A stretch of DNA of 64,000 bases from Giardia intestinalis (taxonomy: Eukaryota), in NCBI GenBank assembly GCA_000002435.2, contig CM018793.1; one strand, given 5' to 3'. Every line of letters starts with the position of its first letter. The stretch's first letter is position 1. Shown here piece by piece: positions 8,602 through 44,002 of the stretch. The notes beneath the pieces are model-generated. The model did no database searches, had not been told where the DNA came from, and worked only from the letters and a program-made list of their open reading frames with translations. The position numbers were made by a program, and so were the translations under genes.

Positions 8602-8687
8602 TTTTGTTTTGTGGGCATCTACTGCAGAAAAGGCTCCATCTCCTATCCTGTACACTTGTAGATATCTGCTGTACTATCGACATCACG

Positions 8688-26204: not shown

Positions 26205-26211
26205 ATTTACT
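26205..26211 (-). promoter_or_regulatory. AGTAAAT poly(A) signal overlapping stop codon
   Basis: Minus strand reads ctAGTAAATtcc. The TAG stop of the 26210..27772 gene lies inside the motif. Confidence 0.45.
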
Positions 26212-30800: not shown

Positions 30801-33313
30801 GAGCTCCAACGCAAGTGCCGATTCTTAGTTGCATATGCGGAGTACAGAAGAGAAAGAGTGGGGTCAATAGACGAGTATACATGACCCTCAAATGCAGCCA
30901 AGGCAGAGCAAAGAACCTCAGCATTTCCAGATACTATGGCTAGGTACAGTGCGTGATCGTACATCTCGTGGTCTAAACACTGGTTAACCACTGTCTCCGG
31001 GGGTGACGAGAGCAGCTCCTGTCGAATGTCCTCCAAAGCTTTAGAGGCCCCCTTGGGCTTCTCTGGTAATGACGAGTAGCAGGGGCTCGACAAGGAAGCA
31101 AGAAGGTCCCTGCAAAACCGTGCCAAGTTGGTCCTGTTGTCATCCGTGTCAAATGTACAGTTACGTAGCTCTGGACATGCTGTAAGCAGCCGGAAGCGGA
31201 TAGCTTGTAGGATAAGTTGTTTATATGAGGGAAGATTCCTCTGGGATCCCGAAGACGCTGATAGTTCCTCTCCCAGTAGGCTGTCTAAATAACCGAGGAT
31301 TCTTGCAGCAGATGCAGAGGGCAGGATGGGAAACAGAGTAGGATCATCATCAAATCTTCTACTATAGTAGGGAACGTGCGCTGTCCTCTTTCCTTGGCCG
31401 GAGGCGTGAGTGGCCGGCTGCTTAGCGTCTTGTCTGACAGACTCTGTCAGGGAAACATGGGGAATCTCGATGGAAGACGTGAGATCCAATGGACTATTAG
31501 ACTTCTCATCTATATTACTGGCCTCAGTAACACCCGTTTGGGTGCCTTCCCTGGAGCCTATGGGCTTTGGTACAATAGTATCTCTGGTTAGTGTGATTCT
31601 GGATGGGGTAATACCCTTGCACGACTTAGCGCGACGCTCTGTAAGGAGCACAACGGAGCGTGTATCATAGATAACAGGAGATGCAGTTCCTAGAATGGGC
31701 TCGGCCGTGGGAGCCGCTAGTATCCCACCTTTATCCGAGTTCATAGCATCCTGTTGCGCAGCCATGTTCATTGGCTTTTCAGCCTTGCTAACTTCGTAGT
31801 AAGCCGTGCTAGCGGTCTTCTCGCCCTCAGAAAGTTCAGAGACGGTCGGAGCGGACTCCCTCTCCACACTCTTCTCTGAACTATCTTTTACGGTAGTAAG
31901 AGTGACTCCAGCACCGGTGCCAAGCTCAGCATTGCAAGGATCCAGAAGTAGCTGAGTAGAGTCACAGAGTTCGGTTATCCCGCCGCGAAGGAGGGAGGCA
32001 GACGTGGTTGGATCGTTTGCATATCTAGGTTCCACGTTGTTATCGTGAAACAGTCCCTTTGTTGGTGAGTCACACTCTTGTTGCAAGTTAGAGTTTTCAG
32101 CCCAGTAGTCAGGGGGCTCCACAGTGCTTCTCCTGTTAAAGGTGGCCGTGACTAACTCGTGCGACGATAACCTTGGCTTCTTGACGTAGGGATTGGTTAT
32201 CTCACTAGCATTATCCGTCTCGCTCTGCTCCTTGAGGGTCCCGCTGTGACAAACCACGTGATTTGGTCTTGTCCTGTTAGTAGCATTGTTAAGGCTTGCG
32301 TGCTTAGAGATAGACGCTCCAGGAACAAGGGTATGAGAGGGAGAGCTATTCAAATAGCGTAGATCCTGGTCAGTGTCGAACGCGCTTCCCGAAACGAGCA
32401 GTTGGTTGTCAGTAACGGATCTGTTAGCAGGGGTAATATCCTCGCTATCGCAATTGTGCGATAGCCTGTCAATGCTAGTGCTGAAGTAAGAGTGGGGTTT
32501 TTGATCTGCGATATTCATCATTATAGCTAAAGGCTGCGCTGCTGTATGTGCCTTTGAAGCAGCTGCTTCCTGCTGTCTCGCCTCTGTTTCTGAAGCACGG
32601 AAATCAGATCTGCCCATATGAGGACCTCCATGTAAATTTATGATAATTCCGTCAAAGCTGGGGTCAGCTAGTTCCATCCGTATTTCTTGATTATGGAGGT
32701 TATCGGACTTAGGTGCTTCATCTGTCTCCCCCTCTGTGGCGAACTCTTGAGTTGTCTTCTCACTAGAGGCCATGGATAGTTTTGCAGATTCAGGTGAAAT
32801 TCCAGGCTGCTGAGTCTGTCTGAAATAAGATAGGGGGCCTAGATCAGGGAACGGCGGGGCTTCGCTGGTCACAACGCTCGCTGGTAGAGCATCGCCAGCG
32901 TCGCTTGCAGCATCTATTTGCTCCTTGGAGTCGTCTAAGAACACATTGTGTTGGATGCTCTCTTGGGTAATGCTAATTAAAGCAGGATCAAGGATCTGCA
33001 GCTCATTCGGCTGCACTGCTGACTCGGAGGGACTCAGTGGAATAGTGTTCGTCTGAGGAGTCGCAAAGGTAGAGGCAGAATTGATTGGTTGTAGAGGTAA
33101 TGCTACTGGTGGACCCACCTGCGACCTGGCGGGAGCTCTGCGCCGGCCTCTGCGGGTCCCTGCACCGGGGCTTGCTATTTCAGAAGAGCTCCCCTTCATC
33201 TGGGCTAGTGTTGGTGGTGGGAGAATGGTGGCCGGGTCAGCTGGGAAAGAAGGATCCATTGATTGAACAACAGCTCTAAAATAAAAAACGTTCCCTACCC
33301 TACCATACATCAT
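27839..33313 (-). CDS. Giant hypothetical protein (~1,824 aa) with disordered Ser/Thr/Pro-rich flanks and a helical core
   Basis: Track start 33337 is TTG. The first ATG pair (MMYGRVGNVFYF) is at 33313, preceded by gtataaaaatcgagcagATGATG. The central ~550 aa (…DHEMYDHALYLAIVSGNAEVLCSALAAFEG…LLCILLGIPPVYDSYGRFCF…) looks globular or helical. The rest is low complexity. Confidence 0.7.
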   Translation of the reverse strand: MMYGRVGNVFYFRAVVQSMDPSFPADPATILPPPTLAQMKGSSSEIASPGAGTRRGRRRAPARSQVGPPVALPLQPINSASTFATPQTNTIPLSPSESAVQPNELQILDPALISITQESIQHNVFLDDSKEQIDAASDAGDALPASVVTSEAPPFPDLGPLSYFRQTQQPGISPESAKLSMASSEKTTQEFATEGETDEAPKSDNLHNQEIRMELADPSFDGIIINLHGGPHMGRSDFRASETEARQQEAAASKAHTAAQPLAIMMNIADQKPHSYFSTSIDRLSHNCDSEDITPANRSVTDNQLLVSGSAFDTDQDLRYLNSSPSHTLVPGASISKHASLNNATNRTRPNHVVCHSGTLKEQSETDNASEITNPYVKKPRLSSHELVTATFNRRSTVEPPDYWAENSNLQQECDSPTKGLFHDNNVEPRYANDPTTSASLLRGGITELCDSTQLLLDPCNAELGTGAGVTLTTVKDSSEKSVERESAPTVSELSEGEKTASTAYYEVSKAEKPMNMAAQQDAMNSDKGGILAAPTAEPILGTASPVIYDTRSVVLLTERRAKSCKGITPSRITLTRDTIVPKPIGSREGTQTGVTEASNIDEKSNSPLDLTSSIEIPHVSLTESVRQDAKQPATHASGQGKRTAHVPYYSRRFDDDPTLFPILPSASAARILGYLDSLLGEELSASSGSQRNLPSYKQLILQAIRFRLLTACPELRNCTFDTDDNRTNLARFCRDLLASLSSPCYSSLPEKPKGASKALEDIRQELLSSPPETVVNQCLDHEMYDHALYLAIVSGNAEVLCSALAAFEGHVYSSIDPTLSLLYSAYATKNRHLRWSSVQGSSSDSKSSHFKTSHDQHPSSATNATTTADFKERPQMLTTMEQGELYADAGGPRIHWDGSLVSLLQNSGPGSSIRRQYATFTAGDILHKIAFSYIHVLTKDERNDVLVSLLVYSKEASENRYLRALLCILLGIPPVYDSYGRFCFTDLFPAESGQMEGQTSQPHVSGPINIGGKHIRSEVSTELELFLQKLPTKNIQSVDLFTFRIHEILEYIHFRTTHIPHELFYQATKPVLLANHGFHHSYKYDLTLPFFPHLLPYKLAFAGFLRRESRTNDTLARYGLLYTTMAYSSIEQVISRVNLSGEYLTRKDAVAADSDALLMKPSCLPTDSKSTPINDLSTATLDYPLGFDYPAIVAPIECGDIFINTLRLASNYKKELRSKASISAKYIKELMLISSEAIESVHHLQKEAYHWLDDLLCETSLRPTQRALLKEIQVLIEGIDIDCVLTSDFSSNYTPHRTSGDNLHDTSILGDEVPIVRRQCMRSTLKSNNAKKQKNMAAADKDSHDERECSENGASTINRSAEPSLTDRGRLTTDYLFGKEPEFLFQAFVGCTGGKSKFQRCTMLQGDISESCDSCEDPQKVVEDSSLDFGVHPEFDNDSFESEDNDLGALEKVLLDPETSGSTNVTNPSVIQQHENYRGQTVTRSSLTPAPVQIYTENVTIPTTTLIRAEYEPNSSIDQGSASDSQSIQGSAFTTSVIQNPEQTYSGSTEPVVTTLVENPPGFPFITPEERHTTVPHLPPPLAIPPGFRGKTSEVPIFEQDVSTDEYSTSSDQDVVPSGRSPPPIIQIDPLSSLARELPTQALTIPQVPLNVSAITVPKFTASSHTCNTPAVSEVTTPVNPTDLNATMIPLPSPLRKNVLVPDSSNEKGCQEPIPEQPKDKRPQPLIFNFFKPSKSKQEGDGVAVVDLKANSTGRMAYSKVYECWVTLDENGDEIPPPVQKEPTPPPVAAASYQQLGNESNRRAPASRMANRTAASRYKLVRD

Positions 33314-33354
33314 CTGCTCGATTTTTATACGCAGCAACTAATCTGCGCCCTCGA
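33314..33354. promoter_or_regulatory. 41-bp bidirectional promoter/initiator region
   Basis: ctgctcgatttttatacgcagcaactaatctgcgccctcgaATG. This is the entire spacer between divergent starts 33313 (-) and 33355 (+), with an A/T-rich core atttttatac. Confidence 0.4.
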
Positions 33355-34005
33355 ATGAGCTCGAGCCACACGCGGGAGAACGGCCCGTCCCAATCCACCG
33401 ACGGCACACGCGCCTCTGCAGTGCACATGCCGGAATCTGTAAAAGCCAGGAAAATGCAAATTTACAGTAGATCCTCCAGTAGGGCCCAGCCGAAAGTTCG
33501 AGACTGCGACGGATGGGATGTCGAGGATGACGACCCAGAGTCCTCACGTGGCGCAGAAAAGGCGAAACCTAAAAGATCGGATGAAGATCAGCGGTCCAGT
33601 GGTAAAACGCGGGAAGAGGACCTACCACTCATTGTAGAGAAACTGAAGACCAACACAAAGATGCTTATCAAGAACATCACCAGGCAAAACGACGTGATCA
33701 CGAATCAGCTTGAAACTATCAATAAGCAAAACGAGAAAATTAAGAGCCTGGAAGAGCGACTCGAGAAGCTGGAGAGCAGGCTGTCGGAGAAAGAGCAGGA
33801 GGAGAAGCGGGTACAGTTTGCAGGCCTCGATATAAAGAGAGAAGAAGAGAAGGAGGATGAGGCCCTTTTTAAAAAGAAGGTGCTGGGCGTGGTTAGCAAG
33901 GAGCTAGAGCACGTAGAATATGTATGCCACATTGTCGAGGCTATTCAGACGCTGGATGCAGAGCTGGATGAGGTTCGGAAGTTTATCCGCCAGGCGTTCA
34001 GCTAG
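33355..34005 (+). CDS. Hypothetical coiled-coil protein
   Basis: 216 aa. Acidic/basic N-terminus, then a heptad-rich segment (ITNQLETINKQNEKIKSLEERLEKLESRLSEKEQEEKR). Confidence 0.55.
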   Translation: MSSSHTRENGPSQSTDGTRASAVHMPESVKARKMQIYSRSSSRAQPKVRDCDGWDVEDDDPESSRGAEKAKPKRSDEDQRSSGKTREEDLPLIVEKLKTNTKMLIKNITRQNDVITNQLETINKQNEKIKSLEERLEKLESRLSEKEQEEKRVQFAGLDIKREEEKEDEALFKKKVLGVVSKELEHVEYVCHIVEAIQTLDAELDEVRKFIRQAFS

Positions 34006-34173: not shown

Positions 34174-37100
34174 ATGCCTTTTGCAGGCTCGGCGCACCCA
34201 CCTATACTACAGCAGAAAGGCCCGGCCAAGCAGAAAATGCAGCGGCCGGAAACTCCCTTGGGAGCAAGCATGGCGCGCCGCACCTGCATGGAAGGCTCTC
34301 TTGTTTATTTGGATAAGTCTACGAACATAAAGAGCATGCAACGCGTCAATCACTCAATCATAATGGCTAACTATACCGTGCTAGAGATCCTCGGACAAGG
34401 ATGCTCTGGGAAAACCTACAAGGTTCTTTTCCAAAGGGACGGACGACTCTATGCAATGAAAAAGAAGCGAAGCGCTACCAGTGAAGACGTCAAGGAAGGC
34501 ATTCTGATCACATCGCTGAAGTGCCCTGTCTGTATACCGTGCTATCTCTGTTGGATAGAGGACAATAGTACGTACTTTGTCACAGACCTAGCTCATTGTA
34601 GTCTCGATAGCATTCTTGACTACTATCATTTTCTTATTGAGGATCTCATCTGGATACTGATGGCAGACATCTCTATGGCTCTGGAGTACATCCACGCTAA
34701 CGGGATTGCACATTGTGATCTAAAGCCAGAGAACATCTTGGTCACCAACAGGATAGATGGGTATAACGTCCCTCCCAAGAATTGTGGAGATAGCTACACC
34801 ATTGACACTAGTATGGACCGCTTAACTCCCATAAACGATCCCAATCTCAAGAGGTCTTACGTAGCACAGCGTGCCGCCGCGTTGGCAAGATCCAAGTCCG
34901 ACAAGGCAAAGGACACATACATTAATAAGAGCCAGAATAAGCCTTTTTCAGTCGCCTCTTCCTCTCATTCTCAGCAAGCTAGTGCAACCAACACTGTTCC
35001 CACAACTGGTGTAGCCAGTGTTGTCAGCACACCAATGCATACCAGTATTGTGAGCACTGCAGTCAATCAAAAACTGTCAGAGGACACCCTTTATCCAATC
35101 GCCTCAGAAAACGTCACGACATCTATGGATCAACTCTCACTTCACACCACCTTTCCTCGCGCGCAAGTTATCCACAGTGATCTCAGGAATTGCATCTTAT
35201 CGACACATAGACAGAGCTTTCCACTTATTATCTCACCATGTTATGAGCGTGCAGCTGACGGAAAATACTTTGTTCGACACAAAAAGGGAGGGTTCCTCCT
35301 CGACAAGATCAACCTGATCAAGAGAAGCTATTCAGATAGCACCCTAGTGGTCCTGAAGCACACAGAAACAATGTTGTCGAATAATTATCCGCGTGAATAC
35401 ATCTTTTGTGAATATGAGGACCAATTTCACAATGAGGTGCAAGATAATTCCCACTTAATCATTCAGCACTTTGAGCTAGGGAGCCCGATGAAGACAAGAT
35501 ACTCCACCCCAATGCATAGGTTCAGTAGCACCTTGAACCAAACTATGGACTGCCAGGCCGTGGACGCAGATGTCGACCAAGGCATGCGTATTCCGCATTT
35601 GGGCATGTCTGAACCTGTCATTAATTTTCACTTCGTCAATATCTCTGAGCGGATAAGTGACACAGAGTGGACACGCTCCTTTGAAAAACCCCAAAGCACA
35701 ATAGAAAACAGCGTGGACTCGGTCGTCTTTTCAAGCAAGCAAGACCTAGAGGTCTTTCGCGTTGAGGAGGAATCCTCGGGAGGGATGAAATCCAACTGTG
35801 TCCCCAATGAGTTAATGCGCCACAGCTCAGTGCTTGCTGTAAGTGCAAAGTCTTTAGAGAAGGCAGATGACGTCATAGAGGATCTAGAAGAATCACTGAC
35901 GGCAACGCAACCCTCTAAGAAAGTGGAGGTCGATCATCTCAGCACTGATGCCACTCTCCAGAATACATCACCAACATCGCAGAGCAACAAAGCAATAACC
36001 TTACTAGCCACATGCAAGCATGATCACACGTGCCATTCTGCCGTTTTCAATTGCAGTGAAGACTCGTCCACAACTAACCCAAAACACGCAACCAAGCTTG
36101 TAAGCCTTCAGAAGGATAAGTCAGTATTGTGTGCTGCATTTCGAAAGCTTCCTCGTAATAACAGCTACCGACTAGCCCTTCTCGCCATGGTCAGTAGGAA
36201 GCCCCTGTACAGTCTGTACTTTAATACCAGATTCCTTTACAGGAGAAGACCTAACCATTGGGCATACTATTTCAACCATTGCAAAAAGCATACCTATCAC
36301 ATAGCAAAGCCATCCTTTCTTCTCTGTAGGAGTGTCAATAGTGTACCAATTAAGCCAAAAACCTTGATGGACGAGATACTATCATTGAGCCATTATGACC
36401 ATAACTCCCAAATACCTACGGTTACCATGCCAGCTCCTCAGGATCAAGAGTCAGTAGACCAAGATTCTCGCGGTATTAAAAGTGCCATAACCATTGGCTT
36501 AGCTAAGAACTTCTTACTAGATAGCTGCTCGTCGTCAGGCCTCTATATTGATGAGAAATCCATCAAGTATGCCAACCACGACTCTTCCAAGTCCAGCATC
36601 TTGTCGAGCCATTTAGAGGGAGACATTTCGCCCAGTATTGAAGCAGATACATTTACAAAGCAGCTATCATCAATTCCTCACCAGTCACGGTGTGCAATGC
36701 TCCCTGCCCCAGCGACTACTGGGCAATGCAGCCATCAGCCTAACTTAGCCATCCAGTACAATTTTGATAGATACCACCACTCTGGAGAGAACCCCAAGGT
36801 GGACACTTTCAGAAAGCGGGGGCACACAATGTATAACTCTAGCAGGCATGCTTTGCAGGCCACTACGTCTCCTCCTAGTAGATCATGCTCCCAAGGCCTA
36901 ACAACCTGGAGCGTATCTCGGCCCACAACCGACCTGTCTCTTTCTTTGCTACTGGAACCTACATCTACCTACGACTCAGCTATAACAGAATATGCACAGT
37001 ACAGAACAAATAACTTTAAAACTAATTCCCGACATAATGAATTGGCAGAGTCATTGAACAAACCAACCTTGCAAGGACAAAAAAGGCAAAATGCATTTCT

Positions 37101-40100
37101 AGGGTCACTCCCTGACGACATGCAGCTCTTTAATCTCTCTCACAGTGCACACTTTCAAAATGGCAGCTTCTCAGGAGACATCCAACCACCGTTCTTTGAA
37201 GATTATAGCTATCCTAATTCGCGATATGCATTTAGTCCCGCACAGGCTTATAAAACCCCGTTCACGAGATCTACTGGCTCTCAAAAGAAGCATGACCCCT
37301 GCATATACGCATCATCAAGCAAAGTCCATCGTCTTTGTAGGCCAAAGGACATGTATGCTGTGCTCGATGTGCATCCTTTTCAACAGATGGGGTTTATGGA
37401 CTCGGATATCTCTTGCTTGCTGCCCCCCTATGGGTATCAATTATATAGGGCAAACAACCTCTTGTCAACATCTATGTGCGGAGATACATATGGAAATCAC
37501 AGTCCAATGAACTTCTTATCATTAGTGCCTTCTACTTCCCACACGCCTGTCAACGTAGTTCCAGTTGCCGTTGATACAGAGCACAGCAGTCCTGAGTCAT
37601 CCTCCTCTAACGAAGGATCCGTACAGCACACTCCCCTACTGACGCCTCGCCAGTTTCCAGTTCTTCCAGGCCCTCCTGACCGAGATGCTAACTGTTCAAA
37701 CTGTTCACAGCCCTCTATCAAGTCTGCCTCTTTTCAGGACAGTATGAAATGCGGTGACCAAACTAAGCAGTCTAATAGACCTATCTTCTCACCAGTGTCC
37801 TCAGATACGTCCCTGAGCAGGTCTTCAGTGATCAATACATGCAATTCTCAGTCAATCCTTCAGAACCTGGTCTTTACCCTTTCCGACTTCGGGCACGCTC
37901 AAGAAGCACCATTCAAGGAAAGTAACACAGGGGATAGTCGATATATATGCCCCCAATTTTTGCGTACGGGAATCCCAGATTACTCAGCAGATGTATATTC
38001 TTTTGGGATGACAATCCTTGAAGTCATGACTAACGTCAACATTCCCCCCAACGGCGAGTCTTTTGAGTGTTTGAGAAGCCACAAAAAAGCCGTATTAGAC
38101 ATGCTGGATGCTAACGTATTTGGGCGGAACTTAAGTGCACAGTTGCACGAGGACGATGCAGCAGGGTCTGACCTTCACAGGTCTTTATCGTTCATTACGC
38201 CGCGCATCACCTACAGTAAAGATCTCTGGCTGGCAATGTTGGATCTCATCGAGCCAGACACGTCTCTACGACCCTCTATTAGGACTTGGCGTAAAAAGTG
38301 GAAAAGTCAGCTGGACCGTATAGACAGAACTAAGCTTTACCAAAAGATAGAGTCTGATCAGCGCGCAGTTGGCCTAATAATGAACGACCGTTTAGCACCG
38401 TCTGCCGTTGATAAGATGAAAGATGCTAGTTCCAAAGATCTTCTTTTCCCGCAGCATACAAGTTTTACCAACGGCGATAGCAGCCATAACCCTTTTCAGT
38501 CCACAGTCTCATCTTGCAAATCCAACGCAGACTTTATCAATACACTGAACTCAACGTATCAATCTAAAGTATATTATAACAAAGACAATCAAATACACCC
38601 CCATTCTATCAATAATTCCACAGCAACTAGCACTAAAATGGTTCCTATTAAATGGTTAGACTCTTGCTTCTGCCAGGACCCCTCGAAGTCTACAAATGCA
38701 ATTTCTTCTATTAACAGACCTGCAGATATGTTAAACACGCGACCACTGAATTATGGAGATCTGCACTGCTCAGCTCACCTTGACACTCAGCTGAACCCCA
38801 GTGACTTGTGCCACGATACGTACAAACACGCTGTCCCGGTTCCTGGGACATATACTTCAATCTGCTCTTGTGATACTCCATGCAATGTTTACGCCAAATC
38901 AAGGAGCAGGAGCCATTGTACTGACTTTCAATCACGGACAGAGTTGCTGGGTCCAGATATAGGAGACGACTATCTGGACTTCGGCTTATCCTATAGGCAA
39001 GAGTCCATGACTCCGACAACCATTGTTATAAACAAACAGCACACAAATACACAGGGCTCTTTACAGCAAGATCATCATCATGTTGTAGGAGCTATGTCGA
39101 TGGGCCCAGCAAAGTCGGTGCACAAATCAGCTCGCTCAGAAGGAGCTGAAACCCCTGCGTCACTTGAGAGGTGCGGCTATCTGTCGCTAAATTGGCACTC
39201 GTCACTAAACGAAGATAGCTTCGAACTGGATCACTCTCAACTGAAGTCGCCGACAAGTGCCCTTCAGAAAGCTCATCAGTCTGCGTTGACATGTGCAGGA
39301 CTCGATGTGGGAGCACTAGACTCGTTTTCCATCCGGGCAGAGTCGGATATGATCCTGCTTGACAATCGCATGCGCGAGGCCCCTTCCGAGATTCAGGTGG
39401 GAGAGCCGTTCCCCATTAGCTTTCAGTCGCATGAGTCCAGCGAGTCCGCGCTTCTTTCCACGGAGCTGCAGCTAAAGGCTCTCGTAGACGACGGGAGTTG
39501 TGAGAACCTGGACGTAGAACCCAAGGATAGTGACCACCTCATAAAGAGCGCCGTGAACACGACTCTCAGCTCTAAGGCACACGCCAGCACACAATCGGTG
39601 GCATTGTTTGCCTCACCTCGCAAACCGGCAGAGCAGACCTCCGCCACTTGCACCTCAGAGAGTCAGATCGACTCTATCCAGAACGACACATTGGCTGTTG
39701 GTAAGCACGTTGCAGTCGGGCAAGCTCACTCTAGTGCTAGTTTCACGTCCAATACGACAGACCGTGGAAAAGCGAACAATCCGACGCAATCCATAGTTAA
39801 CACGCTTCTAAATTCTCCTGTGTCCGGGATCTTCGAACACAGTGATCACAGTGACCTGAGCGTCCATAGTACCAAGAGTAGCAAGAGCTGTAACAGTACG
39901 CTCCACCAAAGCGTAGTGCATCCAAAGAGCTTCGTCAAAAGCTCCCTATCAGATCAGAAGTCCCATCTGGGACAAAAGGATTATGCGAGCACCCAATCAC
40001 TTACATCCAGTTGCGAGAGTGCCCTCAGAAACACTCACTCACTGCCACACATATCTCCACTGTGCTCTTCGTTGAGGTCCGTCATACTCAGCGCTAATCC

Positions 40101-41760
40101 CATTGATGTGGCCGAAACCTCTCCGGAAAGCCAATCGGTGAGCCTTTGCGCAGATGGTATATCCCTTCTGTCCGCACGCCGTGGAAGGGCTATCAGCCAA
40201 ATAACCCGCCGGGAGCTGCAGACCATTGGGGTGAACTCGGCCGTAGACGATAGTACCACGTCTCTGCACGAAAGGCCGGGATACTGTCCGGTTTGCAAGC
40301 TTTTACGTGTTCCTTCGGACTTGCGCCTCACGCAGCGCGCTATGGCCTTGTGCCCCTCTTCCTCTCAGGCTGAAGAGCTTATCCATTACTGTGTGTGTGC
40401 CCAAGCAAGCGCCTTTCCAGATGCAGGAGAGTTCACCCATTCTTATTCAGAGCCTGCATGTACTAACTACAGTAACCACTCTATTGACAAGCTCATTCTT
40501 TCGTGCTACATACAGAAGGACAACTGCGATGCTAATAGCCACGCCCCGTCCCCTCTTCCTCGCGCTGCTCGTAGTGGGGCATCCTTTGGCCCGGGACCCT
40601 TGGTTTCTCAGGAGGATGTTGGCAAGAACAATGACAGAACGGTGTCTGCCAACGATTGTGAGTGTTTACCGAGTCAATTTGTCCTGTCGCACGTATCTGT
40701 ATCGCACCCTTCCTCAACAGTGGGCCCCTGGATGTTACCCTTCAGCAAAACAAGGTCGCTTGTGCTCACTTACACCGAGAGGCTAATAGTTTCTGCGATC
40801 TCGTACCTGTCACTTCGCTCCGGAATATATACCTCAATGCAGGTTCCAAGCGAGGCAGCGGCATCCTGCTTCACGAAATATGAGCAAACGCCAACTGTAA
40901 TCGGATGTAAGACGAACCAGGTACTTTTGTCTAAAGTAGATACGGTCTGCGAGCCTGGTAAAAAGCACTGTTTAGAAGCTGGGAGTGAGGTAAGAGAGAT
41001 TGGCGACGACTCTACTAACTCAGTCGGGAGCTCCGGGGCGGAAAGGGTGCGGTTAGCCTGCAGGCACCGAAGGAGGTCTGCCGGTAACACAGGAAATTTC
41101 AAGGCAGTGGGCTGGGCAGACGATCTGGGTGGAACGGAGGGGCGCACACAAAAGCCCCGCTATAGCACTTTATCTCATTCAAAGTCCGGGATGCTCACAC
41201 GATTGCCATATGCAGAGCTCCAAAGACTTGGATACGTAACTCCACTACCGAAGCAACGAAGGACGCCGGTAAAGTGGAAAAAGCCTAGTAAGGTTTTCTT
41301 ACTTTCTAAGGAAATATCCACCTGCTCGTCTAGAGAGCCGTGCATATCTGTGTGCTCTCTGGCCTTCACGGCGCATGGCGTATTCAACTGTCTGCTGCTT
41401 CTGGACATAGGGCTCATTGACTTTTTTCATACAGCACGCATGTTTCGGTGGATTGGCGTTGTAATTACAATCGTTCTAGCAGGAGTTTTAGCATCTATAT
41501 TGAAGGAGCTCAACACATACCTAGTCTTTGAAGACAAGAGTCCGGGATACGTCTGTGTTCCATATACACGGATATACGTCTCCCCGCGCCAGATCGTGGC
41601 TGTCTGTCTGCGCTTCCTCCTGCCGACAGTTTGCTTTATGGCAACAGGAGTGGGGCTAAGCCTGTACCCACAGTCACGTCTTCTGATGCTTCTGTTGGCT
41701 CTACTCGAGTGTATGTTCGTCGCAAAAATAAGCAAATTCTCAATTCGGAACATTTCGTAG
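34174..41760 (+). CDS. Giant Myt1/Wee1-family protein kinase with split catalytic domain and C-terminal TM anchor
   Basis: N-lobe at aa ~60-195: LGQGCSGKTYKVLFQRDGRLYAMKKKR (compare Myt1 GRLYAVKR), and catalytic loop IAHCDLKPENILV. The C-lobe resumes at aa 1238 with DFG (LSDFGHAQ, nt 37885-37893), followed by GDSRYICPQFL, DVYSFGMTILEVMTNVNIPPNGE (compare Myt1 DVFSLGLTILEVA…ELPHGGE) and LIEPDTSLRPSI. Two C-terminal hydrophobic helices lie at aa ~2440-2520. Single uninterrupted ORF. Confidence 0.8.
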   Translation: MPFAGSAHPPILQQKGPAKQKMQRPETPLGASMARRTCMEGSLVYLDKSTNIKSMQRVNHSIIMANYTVLEILGQGCSGKTYKVLFQRDGRLYAMKKKRSATSEDVKEGILITSLKCPVCIPCYLCWIEDNSTYFVTDLAHCSLDSILDYYHFLIEDLIWILMADISMALEYIHANGIAHCDLKPENILVTNRIDGYNVPPKNCGDSYTIDTSMDRLTPINDPNLKRSYVAQRAAALARSKSDKAKDTYINKSQNKPFSVASSSHSQQASATNTVPTTGVASVVSTPMHTSIVSTAVNQKLSEDTLYPIASENVTTSMDQLSLHTTFPRAQVIHSDLRNCILSTHRQSFPLIISPCYERAADGKYFVRHKKGGFLLDKINLIKRSYSDSTLVVLKHTETMLSNNYPREYIFCEYEDQFHNEVQDNSHLIIQHFELGSPMKTRYSTPMHRFSSTLNQTMDCQAVDADVDQGMRIPHLGMSEPVINFHFVNISERISDTEWTRSFEKPQSTIENSVDSVVFSSKQDLEVFRVEEESSGGMKSNCVPNELMRHSSVLAVSAKSLEKADDVIEDLEESLTATQPSKKVEVDHLSTDATLQNTSPTSQSNKAITLLATCKHDHTCHSAVFNCSEDSSTTNPKHATKLVSLQKDKSVLCAAFRKLPRNNSYRLALLAMVSRKPLYSLYFNTRFLYRRRPNHWAYYFNHCKKHTYHIAKPSFLLCRSVNSVPIKPKTLMDEILSLSHYDHNSQIPTVTMPAPQDQESVDQDSRGIKSAITIGLAKNFLLDSCSSSGLYIDEKSIKYANHDSSKSSILSSHLEGDISPSIEADTFTKQLSSIPHQSRCAMLPAPATTGQCSHQPNLAIQYNFDRYHHSGENPKVDTFRKRGHTMYNSSRHALQATTSPPSRSCSQGLTTWSVSRPTTDLSLSLLLEPTSTYDSAITEYAQYRTNNFKTNSRHNELAESLNKPTLQGQKRQNAFLGSLPDDMQLFNLSHSAHFQNGSFSGDIQPPFFEDYSYPNSRYAFSPAQAYKTPFTRSTGSQKKHDPCIYASSSKVHRLCRPKDMYAVLDVHPFQQMGFMDSDISCLLPPYGYQLYRANNLLSTSMCGDTYGNHSPMNFLSLVPSTSHTPVNVVPVAVDTEHSSPESSSSNEGSVQHTPLLTPRQFPVLPGPPDRDANCSNCSQPSIKSASFQDSMKCGDQTKQSNRPIFSPVSSDTSLSRSSVINTCNSQSILQNLVFTLSDFGHAQEAPFKESNTGDSRYICPQFLRTGIPDYSADVYSFGMTILEVMTNVNIPPNGESFECLRSHKKAVLDMLDANVFGRNLSAQLHEDDAAGSDLHRSLSFITPRITYSKDLWLAMLDLIEPDTSLRPSIRTWRKKWKSQLDRIDRTKLYQKIESDQRAVGLIMNDRLAPSAVDKMKDASSKDLLFPQHTSFTNGDSSHNPFQSTVSSCKSNADFINTLNSTYQSKVYYNKDNQIHPHSINNSTATSTKMVPIKWLDSCFCQDPSKSTNAISSINRPADMLNTRPLNYGDLHCSAHLDTQLNPSDLCHDTYKHAVPVPGTYTSICSCDTPCNVYAKSRSRSHCTDFQSRTELLGPDIGDDYLDFGLSYRQESMTPTTIVINKQHTNTQGSLQQDHHHVVGAMSMGPAKSVHKSARSEGAETPASLERCGYLSLNWHSSLNEDSFELDHSQLKSPTSALQKAHQSALTCAGLDVGALDSFSIRAESDMILLDNRMREAPSEIQVGEPFPISFQSHESSESALLSTELQLKALVDDGSCENLDVEPKDSDHLIKSAVNTTLSSKAHASTQSVALFASPRKPAEQTSATCTSESQIDSIQNDTLAVGKHVAVGQAHSSASFTSNTTDRGKANNPTQSIVNTLLNSPVSGIFEHSDHSDLSVHSTKSSKSCNSTLHQSVVHPKSFVKSSLSDQKSHLGQKDYASTQSLTSSCESALRNTHSLPHISPLCSSLRSVILSANPIDVAETSPESQSVSLCADGISLLSARRGRAISQITRRELQTIGVNSAVDDSTTSLHERPGYCPVCKLLRVPSDLRLTQRAMALCPSSSQAEELIHYCVCAQASAFPDAGEFTHSYSEPACTNYSNHSIDKLILSCYIQKDNCDANSHAPSPLPRAARSGASFGPGPLVSQEDVGKNNDRTVSANDCECLPSQFVLSHVSVSHPSSTVGPWMLPFSKTRSLVLTYTERLIVSAISYLSLRSGIYTSMQVPSEAAASCFTKYEQTPTVIGCKTNQVLLSKVDTVCEPGKKHCLEAGSEVREIGDDSTNSVGSSGAERVRLACRHRRRSAGNTGNFKAVGWADDLGGTEGRTQKPRYSTLSHSKSGMLTRLPYAELQRLGYVTPLPKQRRTPVKWKKPSKVFLLSKEISTCSSREPCISVCSLAFTAHGVFNCLLLLDIGLIDFFHTARMFRWIGVVITIVLAGVLASILKELNTYLVFEDKSPGYVCVPYTRIYVSPRQIVAVCLRFLLPTVCFMATGVGLSLYPQSRLLMLLLALLECMFVAKISKFSIRNIS

Positions 41761-41779: not shown

Positions 41780-42415
41780 ATGCCTGTCAAGCACATCTAC
41801 CTTGTCCGCCATGGAGAGACAGATTTCAACACGGACCCCGAGCCCCGCATCAGAGGCCACGTTCCCAATCCACTGAACGAAATAGGGCGCCTCCATGCCA
41901 AGGAGGCCAGCGCCGCATTGAAGGACGTGAAATTTGATGCCATCTTTTACAGTAGAATTCCCCGTGCCAAGGAAACGGCCGAGGCCATTCGAGCCAATCA
42001 GCCCCAAGCTCGTTTTGAGGAGGAGCCCCTTGTTTGTGATATCTCTTGGGGCGACTGGGAGGGAAAGACGTACCTCGAGGCCTTTGGGACGCCCGAGCGC
42101 GTGCATCTCTTTAAGACAGACCCTGCGCGCCTCGAGATACCAAATGGAGAAAGCTTCTACTCCGTTCTGGCGCGCCTCGAGGCCCTGGTCCACAAGCTTG
42201 AGCGCAGCACCGACGAGACCATCTGCATTGTGTCTCATGGTGCCGTGCTCAACCTTTTCATGTGCTTGATCACCTCCGCCCCGCTGTCGAAGTTTTGGAT
42301 GTTCTATGGCGATGCATGCTCCATTTCGCAAGTGGATATGCACGACCCTTCGACGTTCCACATCCGCTCATACAACGAGACCCGTCACCTGTCTAAGAGT
42401 CTCCCTAGTAAATAG
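41780..42415 (+). CDS. Histidine phosphatase, phosphoglycerate mutase family
   Basis: YLVRHGETDFN (RHG catalytic His motif) plus a second His in ICIVSHGAVL. 211 aa. The ATG lies 19 nt after the upstream stop (ccaaaataaATG). Confidence 0.85.
   Translation: MPVKHIYLVRHGETDFNTDPEPRIRGHVPNPLNEIGRLHAKEASAALKDVKFDAIFYSRIPRAKETAEAIRANQPQARFEEEPLVCDISWGDWEGKTYLEAFGTPERVHLFKTDPARLEIPNGESFYSVLARLEALVHKLERSTDETICIVSHGAVLNLFMCLITSAPLSKFWMFYGDACSISQVDMHDPSTFHIRSYNETRHLSKSLPSK
42407..42413 (+). promoter_or_regulatory. AGTAAAT poly(A) signal overlapping stop codon
   Basis: ccctAGTAAATAGtcg. The TAG stop is at 42413-42415. Confidence 0.5.
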
Positions 42416-42418
42416 TCG

Positions 42419-44002
42419 TTAGGTTCTGTGGGGCCTAGTCGACGGGCTCAGATCTCCGTGCAGAACAGGCCCCTGGTAGCGGATGCGTCTGGAGGCGCAG
42501 GACGCCTCGCTGGACCCGACGTCCGTGCTCTGGACGAGGATGTCCGTCAGAGCAAGATCCTTCTGTCTACTTTCCTGGAAGAGTTCAGGAGTCAAAGATG
42601 ACTCTGCAGCACACGAAGGAATTGGTACTGCGTTGCTATAGATCACATGGGGCTTTGTAGCTGGTCGCTGCTTGTGTTTCCTGGCTTCACGTCGCAAGGC
42701 AGCCTGTAACAATACTGAGCTTGGAGCTGGTAGATCAAGGGCTGAAATCCGGAGGGGCGGGCTTTGTGTTCCAGAGGTGCGCTTTGATAGGCGCATGCGT
42801 GCACGGTAGAGAGAGCTCATGTGTGAAAGCCGCGTGCTAAAGGACGAGTCCTCTCCAACGCTTGAAGGTCGAATAGGCTTGTGGACTGCGGCGACAAAGT
42901 CATCGCAAACAACACGGGCATAAGTGGGCTGAGCGGTCAACACCCGCGCGATGTTCAAACCTGGGGCCGAGTGTGGACGGTTGCCTGTACGGAAAGCAAT
43001 TTCTCTCTGTATATGTGGGCCGTGAATCTTCTCCAAACGTTCCATGGCTTTTTGGTGCTCTCGATAGGTGCGTGTCTGCATGTAAAGGGGTGTGCTAACG
43101 TGTAGACGATCAACAACGTTGGAGCTAAGATACTCACGAGTCTTTTGCGAAAGACTTCTTTCCACCGCTTGTGCAGTCTGGGCACGCCGAGCACGCGCTT
43201 GCTCGTCACGAAGTGCCCGAGGAAGATCGAGCTTCTGACGAGTCGCTTCCTTAATTACTTTGAGCCTGTTCGGTTGCAAGTAGGCATCCAGGGCAGAGCC
43301 GTCGTTGATAAAATTACAATTATGGTTATCGTAGCGGATCAGTTGCGGGGACGAACTATGCAGGTGCGGAGATATTGTTCGCTGGGCCACCATTCGATCA
43401 TTTCGTTCGTAAAAGTTCAACCGAAAATGTGGATCCTGATCACATCTTGCTCGAAACAACGCTCTTGAAGGAGTCAGGTCTGGCTTAAAGGTGCACTCTG
43501 CCATCTCCTCCTTTTCTCGTTGATCCAAGTATTCGCGTAGTGTGCGGCTGGTCCGGTGCAAGGTATCTTCCTGCTCTTCAAGGCGTCGCCGAAGTCGAAC
43601 GTCATCCGACACCCGGTTCTGTACTCGTTGGCTGTATGGAGAAATATACCTGAAGTTCTGGCTACGCGATCTCTTGTGAGGCGGTGACTGGTACTCTCCT
43701 GTGCGTTTTCTCTTTTGCCGAGTACGTGGCTTGGAAGCATCCAGATCTTCGGGGGTGAGAAATCCATGAACAGGGTTGTAGTTTTCAGGCTTGGGGAGGC
43801 TGCTTGCGGGCTCATATAGTTTTGCGATCTTCTCCATGGTTGCTGAGACATCGTAAAGACTAATCGGATCAAGCTGCTCCTTCTCGGTCTGTAGCCCGCT
43901 TCGAGAGTCTGCTTCAGCGGACCGTTCTGTTGCTGATAAAATAAACGAGTCGCTGGGCTCACTGAGCCGAGCCTGTGGAACTACGTGAAGATTTGTATCC
44001 AT
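42419..44002 (-). CDS. Hypothetical protein (basic, coiled-coil-rich)
   Basis: 527 aa. ATG 44002 is preceded by ctcgaattaagaataaATG. Contains an ECTFKPDLTP motif. No confident family assignment. Confidence 0.6.
   Translation of the reverse strand: MDTNLHVVPQARLSEPSDSFILSATERSAEADSRSGLQTEKEQLDPISLYDVSATMEKIAKLYEPASSLPKPENYNPVHGFLTPEDLDASKPRTRQKRKRTGEYQSPPHKRSRSQNFRYISPYSQRVQNRVSDDVRLRRRLEEQEDTLHRTSRTLREYLDQREKEEMAECTFKPDLTPSRALFRARCDQDPHFRLNFYERNDRMVAQRTISPHLHSSSPQLIRYDNHNCNFINDGSALDAYLQPNRLKVIKEATRQKLDLPRALRDEQARARRAQTAQAVERSLSQKTREYLSSNVVDRLHVSTPLYMQTRTYREHQKAMERLEKIHGPHIQREIAFRTGNRPHSAPGLNIARVLTAQPTYARVVCDDFVAAVHKPIRPSSVGEDSSFSTRLSHMSSLYRARMRLSKRTSGTQSPPLRISALDLPAPSSVLLQAALRREARKHKQRPATKPHVIYSNAVPIPSCAAESSLTPELFQESRQKDLALTDILVQSTDVGSSEASCASRRIRYQGPVLHGDLSPSTRPHRT

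What the first reader, a model, noticed from the sequence alone, without database searches (positions are those of the whole stretch)
34174..41760. Myt1/Wee1-family kinase whose catalytic domain is split by a ~1,040-aa insertion, with a ~1,150-aa tail ending in a TM anchor
The N-lobe and catalytic loop (aa ~60-195) carry GRLYAMKK and IAHCDLKPENILV, both strongly Myt1/Wee1-like. In a canonical kinase the DFG motif follows the catalytic loop by about 20 residues. Here it appears about 1,040 residues later (LSDFGHAQ at aa 1238, nt 37885-37893). It is followed by Wee1/Myt1-specific C-lobe motifs (GDSRYICPQFL, DVYSFGMTILEVMT…NIPPNGE, LIEPDTSLRPSI). The intervening ~3.1 kb is one continuous, Ser-rich, largely low-complexity frame with no stops, in a genome with very few introns. 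After the kinase comes ~1,150 aa of further low-complexity sequence, then two hydrophobic helices at the extreme C-terminus. This echoes the membrane tethering of metazoan Myt1. An insertion of this size between subdomains VIb and VII is not something I know from described kinases. The known large kinase inserts (eIF2alpha kinases, some Plasmodium kinases) sit elsewhere in the fold or are much shorter. Either a giant disordered loop is tolerated within the activation-segment region of a cell-cycle CDK-inhibitory kinase, or the two halves assemble as a split kinase.
Basis: partly seen in the sequence, partly recalled or inferred. Interest (0 to 1): 0.7.

Follow-up and report, generated by a model that had tools for sequence, protein, structure and literature searches.

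The report
Giardia Wee/Myt kinase, giant insert
This is Giardia's single, already annotated Wee/Myt-type cell-cycle kinase; its catalytic domain really is interrupted by about 1,040 translated residues and it ends in a membrane anchor, but the insert was noted in 2011 and sits where SRPK kinases carry their spacer.

Summary
Window 34174-41760 (+) is one 2,528-aa ORF. It is Giardia lamblia WB gene GL50803_115572, annotated "Kinase, Wee".

Catalytic Asp182 and DFG Asp1238 lie 1,056 residues apart, against 18 in a canonical kinase. With the insert excised, the two halves match Pfam Pkinase as one stretch, and human Myt1 is the best solved relative.

The insert is coding sequence, not an intron:
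- Assemblage A vs B identity by codon position is 0.75/0.81/0.47.
- All 15 indels are multiples of 3.
- No Giardia splice motif is present.
- A published RNA-seq intron survey lists no junction in this gene.

The C-terminus has four hydrophobic segments, not two, and these are weakly conserved in Spironucleus.

The novelty claim fails. The 2011 Giardia kinome paper already notes the insert, several other Giardia kinases have large inserts, and the SRPK spacer occupies the same loop. The Wee1-versus-Myt1 subfamily is unresolved. Interest is low to moderate.

The parts
34174..41760 (+). Whole ORF, 2,528 aa plus stop: Giardia lamblia WB GL50803_115572, 'Kinase, Wee'
   Evidence: Searches show an uninterrupted ORF. 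The sequence is identical to the excised kinase sequence printed for GL50803_115572 in PMC3218828 Additional file 1. The assemblage B orthologue P0001 is 2,511 aa, 65% identical and 100% covered.
34174..34353 (+). N-terminal extension, aa 1-60
   Evidence: 92% identical to assemblage B, dN/dS 0.05. aa 24-52 is also conserved in orthologue P0059.
34354..34758 (+). Kinase N-lobe, helices αD-αE and catalytic loop (aa 61-195). Includes the Gly loop GQGCSG (nt 34393-34410), β3 Lys96 (nt 34459-34461), the family Trp in LCWIED (nt 34546-34563) and HCDLKPEN (nt 34711-34734).
   Evidence: Pfam Pkinase profile 1-133 matches aa 67-192. Myt1 residues 31-166 match aa 63-190. 90% identical to assemblage B.
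34759..37863 (+). Insert (spacer) of about 1,035 aa in the β7-β8 turn, between the catalytic loop and DFG (aa 196-1230)
   Evidence: No Pfam family matches. Among 1.84 billion representative proteins only P0001 matches it. A vs B: 62% aa identity, dN 0.25, dN/dS about 0.08 with dS saturated. Codon-position identity is 0.745/0.808/0.467 and all indels are multiples of 3. No intron motif and no repeats.
35224..35523 (+). Conserved island 1 inside the insert, aa 351-450 (ISPCYERA.DGKYFVR..GGFLLDKINLIKRSYSDSTLVVLKHTETMLSNNYPREYIFCEYED...)
   Evidence: 92% and 78% identity to assemblage B in the two 50-aa windows, close to the kinase lobes. No homologue elsewhere. AF2 was uninformative.
37096..37548 (+). 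Conserved island 2 inside the insert, aa ~975-1125 (LPDDMQLFNLSHSA.FQNGSFS ... DPCIYASSSKVHRLCRPK ... HPFQQMGF ... LLSTSMCGDTYGNHS)
   Evidence: 68-82% identity to assemblage B in 50-aa windows; sub-block aa 951-1230 has dN/dS 0.03. Also present in the independent contig fragment P0002.
37864..38328 (+). Kinase C-lobe from β8 onward (aa 1231-1385). Includes DFG (nt 37885-37893), TGDSRY, the family's EGD-type motif (nt 37927-37944), CPQ in place of APE (nt 37948-37956), DVYSFG (nt 37990-38007), NGESFECLR (nt 38050-38076) and LRPS (nt 38266-38277).
   Evidence: Pfam Pkinase profile 137-255. Myt1 residues 186-242 match aa 1245-1302. 88% identical to assemblage B. Spliced to the N half it gives one Pkinase stretch covering profile 1-254 of 263 at 107 bits.
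38329..41340 (+). C-terminal tail, aa 1386-2389. Ser-rich and without recognisable domains, with conserved islands at aa ~2001-2100 (Cys/His-rich) and ~2185-2235.
   Evidence: No Pfam family matches. 64% identical to assemblage B, dN/dS 0.15, codon-position identity 0.77/0.81/0.51. No similarity to the tails of P0059 or Spironucleus.
41341..41745 (+). C-terminal hydrophobic region with four candidate membrane helices: aa 2390-2415, 2421-2448, 2473-2495 and 2501-2524
   Evidence: Apart from one buried N-lobe strand, these are the only Kyte-Doolittle 19-residue windows above 1.6 in the protein. The region is conserved in assemblage B. It aligns colinearly with the C-terminus of Spironucleus salmonicida WEE: BLASTP E 0.003, 0 of 300 shuffles reach the score, hmmsearch i-E 0.035.

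Best explanation
The ORF encodes one polypeptide: Giardia's only Wee/Myt-family, CDK-inhibitory-type protein kinase. Its catalytic domain is complete and probably active.

The roughly 1,040 extra residues form a surface loop that leaves the fold at the turn between strands β7 and β8. This turn lies right after the catalytic loop and right before DFG, at the same site as the SRPK spacer. The N- and C-terminal halves can therefore still pack into a normal bilobal kinase.

The spacer is translated and under purifying selection. It is mostly non-globular, with a few strongly conserved islands. By analogy with SRPKs, I infer that it is dispensable for catalysis and serves as a regulatory, docking or localisation element.

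A long tail ends in a three- to four-helix hydrophobic region that anchors the kinase in a membrane, as in Spironucleus. The enzyme would then phosphorylate the inhibitory Thr14/Tyr15-type sites of Giardia CDK1 from a membrane surface, working like metazoan Myt1.

Shown here: one ORF, a coding insert, a complete set of kinase motifs, the insert site, its expansion along the diplomonad lineage, and the hydrophobic C-terminus. Inferred: catalytic activity, the CDK substrate, membrane insertion and the role of the spacer.
For: - Single ORF. The same architecture occurs in the independently assembled assemblage B genome. An independent contig runs through the insert-to-C-lobe junction.
- Coding constraint on the insert: dN/dS about 0.08; codon-position identity 0.745/0.808/0.467; 15 of 15 indels are multiples of 3; P(open by chance) 3.6e-23.
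- No Giardia intron consensus ([G/C]TATGT ... CT[A/G]ACACACAG) in the ORF or anywhere in the window.
- The RNA-seq survey of strain WB (70 runs, 42 candidate introns) lists none in this gene.
- The spliced core gives one Pkinase stretch at 107 bits and one stretch on Myt1.
- The diplomonad core profile scores Myt1 at 97.8 bits, E 6e-27. The named top homologues are PKMYT1.
- Gly loop, Lys96, Asp182, Asn187, Asp1238, Asp1273 and Arg1366 are all present. The kinome paper calls the protein 'Active (K,D,D present)'.
- Orthologues carry the insert at the same site: 124 residues in S. salmonicida WEE, 599 in P0059, 1,014 in assemblage B and 1,056 here.
- The AF2 model of P0059 aa 60-940 folds both halves at pLDDT 82-96, with the insert (<50) between β7 and β8.
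- The SRPK1 spacer is at the same site. It is reported as dispensable for activity and as controlling localisation (PMC5293202, PMC10952393).
- The hydrophobic C-terminus is conserved in assemblage B and weakly in Spironucleus.
Against: - No direct protein-level or transcript-level data were available for this gene. The RNA-seq survey could miss a junction in a weakly expressed gene.
- The structural model is of an orthologue whose lobes are about 45% identical to Giardia's, not of the Giardia protein. The tool refuses spliced sequences and the protein exceeds the size limit.
- AF2 on the Giardia insert plus C-lobe was uninformative: mean pLDDT 26.9 from a two-sequence alignment.
- The APE glutamate is replaced in all diplomonad orthologues (CPQ, CPH, QQQ). 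The family's EGD motif reads TGD, and the subdomain X Trp is Phe.
- The spacer shows no enrichment of CDK, Polo-box or basophilic phosphorylation motifs, so a phospho-regulatory role has no sequence support.
- P0059 has no hydrophobic segment at all, so the membrane anchor is not universal in the lineage.
- The Giardia-Spironucleus C-terminal similarity is weak (25 bits).
Confidence: 0.72

Rival explanations
1. The roughly 3.1-kb insert is an unannotated intron, or is otherwise removed from the mRNA, so the mature protein has a contiguous kinase domain.
For: The kinase halves abut exactly at a loop, and excising the insert restores a canonical domain. A 2023 RNA-seq study argues that Giardia has more introns than once thought, including non-canonical ones up to kilobases long (PMC10711314).
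Against: - The frame is open for 1,035 codons in two assemblages whose synonymous sites are saturated.
- Identity by codon position is 0.745/0.808/0.467, and all 15 indels are multiples of 3.
- Conserved islands reach 92% amino-acid identity.
- No [G/C]TATGT ... CT[A/G]ACACACAG motif pair exists; the only GTATGT lies at nt 41711.
- Gene 115572 is absent from the 42 junctions found in 70 RNA-seq runs.
- Orthologues in two other diplomonads also keep an in-frame insert at this site.
Confidence: 0.03
2. The protein is a catalytically dead pseudokinase or scaffold. The giant insert next to DFG and the altered APE and EGD motifs abolish activity, and the conserved parts serve only as a membrane-bound docking platform.
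For: APE reads CPQ, with the Glu lost in all four diplomonad orthologues. EGD reads TGD. The insert lies directly before β8 and DFG. Giardia has many dead kinases among its Neks, some with large inserts.
Against: - All residues needed for phosphotransfer are kept: GxGxxG, Lys96, Asp182, Asn187 and Asp1238.
- The kinome authors scored it 'Active'.
- The lobes are the most constrained part of the gene: 88-90% identity, dN about 0.05-0.06.
- SRPKs with a spacer at the same site are constitutively active (PMC10952393).
- It is the only Wee-family gene in Giardia, while CDK1-type kinases and Cdc25-like phosphatases are present (PMC3218828, PMC10100927).
Confidence: 0.12
3. The halves function as a split kinase. 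The polypeptide is cleaved within the insert, or the C-terminal part is expressed separately, and the two pieces reassemble non-covalently.
For: In-frame Met codons exist at aa 1112 and 1191. The insert is long, and it is predicted unstructured in the orthologue, so it would be accessible to proteases.
Against: No stop, frameshift or gene boundary exists in either assemblage. Purifying selection acts along the whole insert. No precedent or sequence signal for processing was found. The covalent-loop solution is established for SRPKs.
Confidence: 0.05
4. The kinase and the tail with its membrane region are distinct genes wrongly read as one. The long ORF would be a fusion artefact of assembly or annotation.
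For: The tail has no recognisable domain. The closest outgroup orthologue, P0059, has a shorter tail and no hydrophobic region.
Against: The frame is continuous in two independent assemblies, with coding-type conservation throughout: tail codon-position identity 0.77/0.81/0.51. The Spironucleus salmonicida WEE protein (807 aa) combines the same kinase with a hydrophobic C-terminus that aligns colinearly with Giardia's.
Confidence: 0.03

Closest known systems
GL50803_115572, 'Kinase, Wee' (WEE-unclassified, GK074) of the Giardia lamblia kinome (Manning et al. 2011, PMC3218828)
   Same: It is the same gene. The excised kinase-domain sequence printed in Additional file 1 is identical to the window's protein. 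[quoted passage not shown]
   Different: - The paper understates the size: about 800 against 1,038 extra residues.
- It does not locate the insert within the fold.
- It does not mention the 1,142-aa tail or the hydrophobic C-terminus.
- It does not compare other diplomonads.
- Later papers only name the gene (PMC10100927).
SRPK family (human SRPK1/2, yeast Sky1p): bipartite kinase domain with a spacer insert
   Same: The insert is at the same point of the fold, between the catalytic loop and the DFG/DLG motif: HTDIKPENILL-[~270 aa]-KVKIADLG in PDB 6FAD. The spacer is described as a largely disordered loop outside the core. It is reported as dispensable for catalysis and as governing localisation (PMC5293202, PMC10952393).
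Metazoan Myt1 / PKMYT1 (membrane-associated Thr14/Tyr15 Cdc2-inhibitory kinase)
   Different: - Myt1 has 18 residues from the catalytic Asp to DFG.
- Myt1 has a single transmembrane segment directly after the kinase domain, followed by a cyclin-binding C-terminus (PMC13398180).
- Giardia has a four-segment region at the extreme C-terminus, after about 1,000 residues.
- A neighbour-joining tree places the diplomonad clade outside both the Myt1 and Wee1/Swe1 groups in 164 of 200 bootstraps.
Wee1 kinases with short inserts in the same loop (vertebrate Wee1, Trypanosoma brucei TbWee1)
   Same: They belong to the same family and have extra residues at the same site. Distances of 32-36 occur in 3 of 40 sampled Wee/Myt-type proteins, including a fish Wee1. 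In TbWee1 the catalytic segment ends at residue 336 and the activation loop starts at 390 (PMC3818516).
   Different: Their inserts are 14-40 residues, not hundreds to a thousand. These proteins are soluble and nuclear, and TbWee1 has no transmembrane domain.
Other Giardia kinases with large kinase-domain inserts (NDR GK004, CAMKK GL50803_96363, Neks GL50803_22451 and 9354, family GL1 GL50803_17378 and 17392)
   Same: They come from the same genome and show the same phenomenon. The 2011 supplementary table notes 'split by a large insert', 'Large insert within kinase domain' and '~520 AA insert' after the HxD motif.
   Different: They belong to different families and their insert positions were not compared here. 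The Wee insert is the largest one mentioned in that table.

Membership tests
Eukaryotic protein kinase (ePK) catalytic domain | Full-length match to the Pkinase profile (PF00069) above the gathering score | tested here: met
   Native protein: 92.4 bits in two stretches (cut-off 31.7). Insert excised: one stretch covering profile 1-254 of 263 at 107.3 bits.
Eukaryotic protein kinase (ePK) catalytic domain | Catalytic residues: Gly-rich loop, β3 Lys, HxD catalytic Asp, Asn, DFG Asp | tested here: met
   GQGCSG at aa 74-79, Lys96 in YAMKK, HCD with Asp182, Asn187, and DFG with Asp1238. All are conserved in assemblage B and P0059. The Gly loop is degenerate (SAGSQG) in Spironucleus.
Eukaryotic protein kinase (ePK) catalytic domain | APE motif glutamate at the end of the activation segment | tested here: not met
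   CPQ in both Giardia assemblages, CPH in P0059 and QQQ in Spironucleus. This residue stabilises the C-lobe and is not part of the phosphotransfer chemistry (established knowledge).
Wee/Myt family (KinBase Other/WEE) | Closest relatives by sequence, profile and fold are Wee/Myt kinases | tested here: met
Wee/Myt family (KinBase Other/WEE) | EGD triplet in subdomain VIII (PMC3818516) | tested here: inconclusive
   TGDSRY in Giardia and P0059, CGDSRY in Spironucleus. Gly-Asp and the following xRY are kept, but the Glu is not.
Wee/Myt family (KinBase Other/WEE) | [quoted passage not shown] | tested here: inconclusive
   The subdomain IV Trp is present (LCWIED; CW in P0059; Phe in Spironucleus). 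In subdomain X the Trp is replaced by Phe (GESFECLR), as reported for TbWee1, and the Arg is present.
Wee/Myt family (KinBase Other/WEE) | Phosphorylates Cdk1 on Tyr15 (and Thr14) and delays mitotic entry | not testable with these tools
   I found no experimental paper on this gene. It is only named in PMC3218828 and PMC10100927.
Myt1 subfamily | Kinase domain groups with Myt1 rather than Wee1 in a phylogeny | tested here: inconclusive
   Profile scores favour Myt1. In a neighbour-joining tree (49 sequences, 219 columns, 200 bootstraps) the first labelled relatives of the diplomonad clade include both groups in 164 replicates, Wee1 only in 32 and Myt1 only in 4. This agrees with 'WEE-unclassified' in the kinome paper.
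Myt1 subfamily | Single transmembrane or membrane-association segment immediately C-terminal to the kinase domain, followed by a cyclin B/Cdk1-binding C-terminus | tested here: not met
   There is no hydrophobic window between aa 129 and 2389. Four segments cluster at aa 2390-2524, at the very end of the protein. The Myt1 architecture is taken from PMC13398180.
SRPK-type spacer-split kinases | Long insert between the catalytic loop (subdomain VIb) and the DFG/DLG motif (subdomain VII) | tested here: met
   Giardia Asp182 to Asp1238. SRPK1 reads HTDIKPENILL ... KIADLG in the PDB 6FAD sequence. The orthologue model places the insert between β7 (130-134) and β8 (717-721).
SRPK-type spacer-split kinases | Kinase domain homologous to CMGC/SRPK | tested here: not met

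The most novel reading that the evidence does not exclude
The spacer and the membrane anchor could be functional parts of an ancestral diplomonad design rather than tolerated filler. In this reading the diplomonad ancestor already had a membrane-tethered Wee/Myt kinase, since a C-terminal multi-helix anchor is shared by Giardia and Spironucleus. The β7-β8 loop then expanded in steps (124, then 599, then about 1,040 residues) into a regulatory module. Its conserved islands (aa 351-450 and about 975-1125) would dock partners or fold back onto the kinase next to the DFG motif to gate activity. If the anchor were also homologous in function to metazoan Myt1 tethering, membrane-bound CDK inhibition would date to early eukaryotes.
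Probability: 0.15. Interest if true: 0.55.

Novelty: already known. Interest (0 to 1): 0.3.

Why it matters
Giardia has a single Wee/Myt kinase, and control of its unusual two-nucleus cell cycle is poorly understood. It helps anyone who wants to express, tag or inhibit this enzyme to know three things: the whole 2,528-aa ORF is coding, the catalytic core can be reconstituted by excising aa ~196-1230, and the protein is probably membrane-anchored.

As far as I could find, this is the largest insert tolerated at the β7-β8 turn of a protein kinase. It extends the SRPK precedent about fourfold. The graded series across diplomonads is a natural experiment in how a loop in a conserved fold expands.

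The basic fact was already recorded in 2011, and similar inserts occur in other Giardia kinases. It therefore opens no new category and resolves no long-standing question.

Tried and rejected
- AF2 of Giardia aa 215-1385 with a two-sequence alignment gave mean pLDDT 26.9, and even the C-lobe was not folded. I drew no conclusion about order or disorder in the insert.
- The word-index homologue searches were nearly useless. The full protein found only the assemblage B orthologue. The spliced core and the four-sequence profile found mostly generic kinases and missed the diplomonad orthologues. The exhaustive representative search found those orthologues.
- Sensitive single-target HMM searches of the insert and tail against P0059 and Spironucleus found nothing apart from the weak C-terminal match.
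- I looked for repeats, internal duplication and enrichment of [ST]P, [ST]Px[KR], S[ST]P or Rxx[ST] in the insert and tail. None was found, so a CDK- or Polo-regulated spacer has no sequence support.
- The organism carrying P0059 could not be named. Neither it nor four neighbouring proteins is within 90% identity of any named protein.
- The type of sequencing run behind fragment P0002 (SRR25944765) could not be determined, so I did not use it as transcript evidence.
- Myt1-subfamily membership was considered and not adopted: the tree is unresolved and the transmembrane architecture differs.
- dS between assemblages is saturated, so dN/dS values are approximate. Codon-position identities and indel phase served as saturation-independent evidence.
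Full report
**What is there.** Window 34174-41760 (+) is a single uninterrupted ORF of 2,528 codons. Pfam finds the protein kinase domain in two pieces, with aa 67-192 matching profile positions 1-133 of 263. The best solved relative, human Myt1 (PKMYT1), also matches in two pieces: aa 63-190 to Myt1 31-166 and aa 1245-1302 to Myt1 186-242.

The catalytic Asp182 and the DFG Asp1238 are 1,056 residues apart.

**Identity of the gene.** The only close homologue in the 5.8-billion-protein collection is "Kinase, Wee [Giardia duodenalis assemblage B]", 2,511 aa, 65% identical over the full length. Additional file 1 of the Giardia kinome paper (Manning et al. [quoted passage not shown] ".

That printed sequence is identical to the window's protein. 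The window is therefore G. lamblia WB, and the split kinase domain was already noticed in 2011, with its size understated. The same table records large kinase-domain inserts in a Giardia NDR, a CAMKK, several Neks and the GL1 family, including one of "~520 AA". A later paper only names the gene as a Wee kinase or a membrane-associated Cdc2-inhibitory kinase homologue (PMC10100927). I found no experimental study of it.

**Is the insert translated?** Yes, on several independent grounds.
- An open frame of 1,035 codons has a chance probability of 3.6e-23 for this composition. The other two forward frames of the insert contain 46 and 83 stops.
- The frame is also open in the independently assembled assemblage B genome.
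- Synonymous sites between the assemblages are saturated, yet the insert keeps 62% amino-acid identity, with dN 0.25 and dN/dS about 0.08.
- Nucleotide identity by codon position in the insert is 0.745/0.808/0.467. The N-lobe shows the same periodic signature at 0.91/0.96/0.50.
- All 15 gaps in a nucleotide-level alignment of the insert are multiples of three.
- The Giardia intron consensus ([G/C]TATGT ... CT[A/G]ACACACAG; PMC10711314) is absent from the ORF and from the whole window. The only GTATGT is at nt 41711.
- That RNA-seq study searched 70 runs of strain WB for junctions up to 10 kb. It tabulates 42 candidates with gene IDs, and none is in gene 115572.

An intron, a frameshift and a two-gene reading are thus effectively excluded.

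**Do the halves make one kinase?** Joining aa 55-200 to aa 1225-1400 gives a single Pkinase match over profile 1-254 of 263 at 107.3 bits, against 92.4 bits in two stretches for the native protein. It also gives a single alignment to Myt1 at 80 bits, with Wee1 and Wee2 at 54-55 bits. All phosphotransfer residues are present.

A run on aa 215-1385 with a two-sequence alignment was uninformative, with mean pLDDT 26.9. I therefore modelled aa 60-940 of orthologue P0059 (see the next section). It contains both lobes and a 570-residue insert, and I used a 27-row alignment that included the Giardia lobes.

**Relatives and history of the insert.** I ran an exhaustive HMM search of 1.84 billion representative proteins with a profile of insert plus C-lobe. 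Only the assemblage B orthologue matched the insert. Every other hit aligned solely to the C-lobe. Two of those hits are orthologues.
- P0063 is "Kinase, WEE [Spironucleus salmonicida]", 807 aa.
- P0059 is 1,394 aa, from a 99.6-kb contig of an unnamed Giardia-like diplomonad. Its lobes are 45-46% identical to Giardia's.

Both are interrupted at the same place. The catalytic-Asp-to-DFG distance is 124 in Spironucleus, 599 in P0059, 1,014 in assemblage B and 1,056 here. The insert sequences have no detectable similarity between these lineages.

Within G. intestinalis the insert is not junk.
- Islands at aa 351-450 (92% and 78% identity in 50-aa windows) and at about aa 975-1125 are conserved nearly as well as the lobes.
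- The insert is Ser-rich (14.4%), but its local sequence entropy equals that of the lobes.
- It has no tandem repeats and no internal duplication.
- It shows no excess of CDK, Polo-box or basophilic kinase motifs.

**C-terminus.** After the kinase come 1,142 residues without Pfam domains, under coding constraint (dN/dS 0.15). The last 140 residues contain four hydrophobic windows: aa 2390-2415, 2421-2448, 2473-2495 and 2501-2524. Apart from one buried N-lobe strand, these are the only such windows in the protein. They are conserved in assemblage B.

The Spironucleus protein also ends in hydrophobic segments (712-731 and 760-806). These align colinearly with Giardia's, including a shared Y..P......FLLP stretch. 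BLASTP gives E 0.003 with composition correction, none of 300 shuffles reaches the score, and hmmsearch gives i-E 0.035. The match is weak but positionally consistent, and it suggests a membrane anchor older than the Giardia-Spironucleus split. P0059 has no hydrophobic segment, and none is encoded nearby, so the anchor is not universal.

**Family placement.** Membership in the Wee/Myt family is well supported by sequence, profile and fold. Published diagnostic residues (PMC3818516) give partial support.
- The subdomain IV Trp is present.
- The subdomain X Arg is present, but its Trp is Phe, as in TbWee1.
- EGD reads TGD.
- The APE glutamate is lost in all four diplomonad proteins.

The subfamily is unresolved. 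Profile scores favour Myt1 (97.8 bits, with Wee1 below the 1e-20 cut-off). In a bootstrapped neighbour-joining tree, however, the diplomonad clade (monophyletic in 158 of 200 replicates) sits outside both the Myt1 and the Wee1/Swe1 groups in 164 of 200 replicates. This matches the kinome paper's "WEE-unclassified".

The membrane architecture also differs from Myt1. Metazoan Myt1 has one transmembrane segment directly after the kinase domain (PMC13398180).

**Precedent for the insert site.** The PDB sequence of full-length human SRPK1 (6FAD) reads HTDIKPENILL-[about 270 residues]-KVKIADLGNA, so the SRPK spacer occupies exactly this loop. It is described as a largely disordered loop outside the core. 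It is reported as not needed for catalysis, and as controlling localisation and partner binding (PMC5293202, PMC10952393).

The size is about four times that of SRPK1, and as far as I could find it is the largest at this site.

**Most likely mechanism.** The gene encodes one polypeptide, an active Wee/Myt-type kinase. Its β7-β8 turn carries a giant, mostly non-globular spacer with a few conserved docking or regulatory islands. A long tail ends in a multi-helix membrane anchor. It would inhibit Giardia CDK1 from a membrane surface, working like Myt1 without being demonstrably a Myt1 orthologue.

Shown here: the anatomy, the coding status, the insert site, the lineage-specific expansion and the hydrophobic C-terminus. 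Inferred: catalytic activity, the substrate, membrane insertion and the spacer's role.

**Verdict.** The feature is real and correctly described in outline, but it belongs to an annotated gene and was already noted in the literature. It is one of several insert-bearing Giardia kinases, and the SRPK family provides a well-studied topological precedent. This analysis adds the following:
- proof that the insert is coding;
- its exact structural location;
- the graded series across diplomonads;
- the finding that the insert has no detectable relative outside G. intestinalis, despite its conserved islands;
- the four-segment C-terminal anchor shared with Spironucleus;
- the unresolved Wee1-versus-Myt1 status.

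Interest is low to moderate (0.3).

Noticed in passing
window ~40261-40398 (aa ~2030-2075 of the kinase tail): This conserved island (82% identical to assemblage B) has a Cys/His pattern, ERPGYCPVCKLL ... ALCPSSSQAE..IHYCVCAQ, that could bind zinc. It has no Pfam match.
   Followed up: partly
window 34243-34329 (aa 24-52): The N-terminal segment PETPLGASMARRTCMEGSLVYLDKS, ahead of the kinase domain, is conserved in the distant orthologue P0059 (aa 26-54; single-target hmmsearch E 3e-4). It is the only non-kinase stretch shared with that species.
   Followed up: partly
window 37948-37956 (aa 1259-1261); P0059 and P0063: The APE-motif glutamate is replaced in all four diplomonad Wee orthologues: CPQ, CPQ, CPH and QQQ. 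This looks like a lineage-wide change at the end of the activation segment.
   Followed up: partly
window 41780-42415 (+): A histidine-phosphatase (His_Phos_1, phosphoglycerate-mutase-like) gene starts only 19 nt after the kinase stop codon. It is 93% identical in protein to assemblage B, and the gene order is kept there (L001 10569-11204).
   Followed up: partly
window 45124-48282 (-): This 1,052-aa protein consists largely of ankyrin repeats (Ank_2, E 3.5e-99).
   Followed up: no
window 27839-33337 (-), 33355-34005 (+), 42419-44002 (-), 26210-27772 (-): Four neighbouring ORFs of 216-1,832 aa have no Pfam family at E <= 0.001. The 1,832-aa ORF has a counterpart upstream of the kinase in assemblage B (L001 1-2162).
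   Followed up: no
L003 (Logan SRR31929897 contig, 99.6 kb), gene at 5001-9185: This is an unnamed Giardia-like diplomonad genome. The Wee orthologue and four neighbouring proteins are each the only member of their 90%-identity cluster and carry no source name. Its Wee kinase has a 599-residue catalytic-loop-to-DFG distance but no hydrophobic C-terminus.
   Followed up: partly
L001 3001-3075 (assemblage B gene model): The assemblage B model starts 25 codons upstream of the Met that aligns with the window's start codon. The window ORF listing begins at 34174 because a stop lies upstream. The assemblage B start may be over-extended.
   Followed up: no
L002 (Logan SRR25944765 contig, 1,732 bp): An independent contig from an assemblage-B-like isolate spans the end of the insert and the C-lobe in one frame. 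It diverges after ...LRPSIK, which suggests a contig-end artefact or frameshift. The run type (DNA or RNA) is unknown.
   Followed up: no
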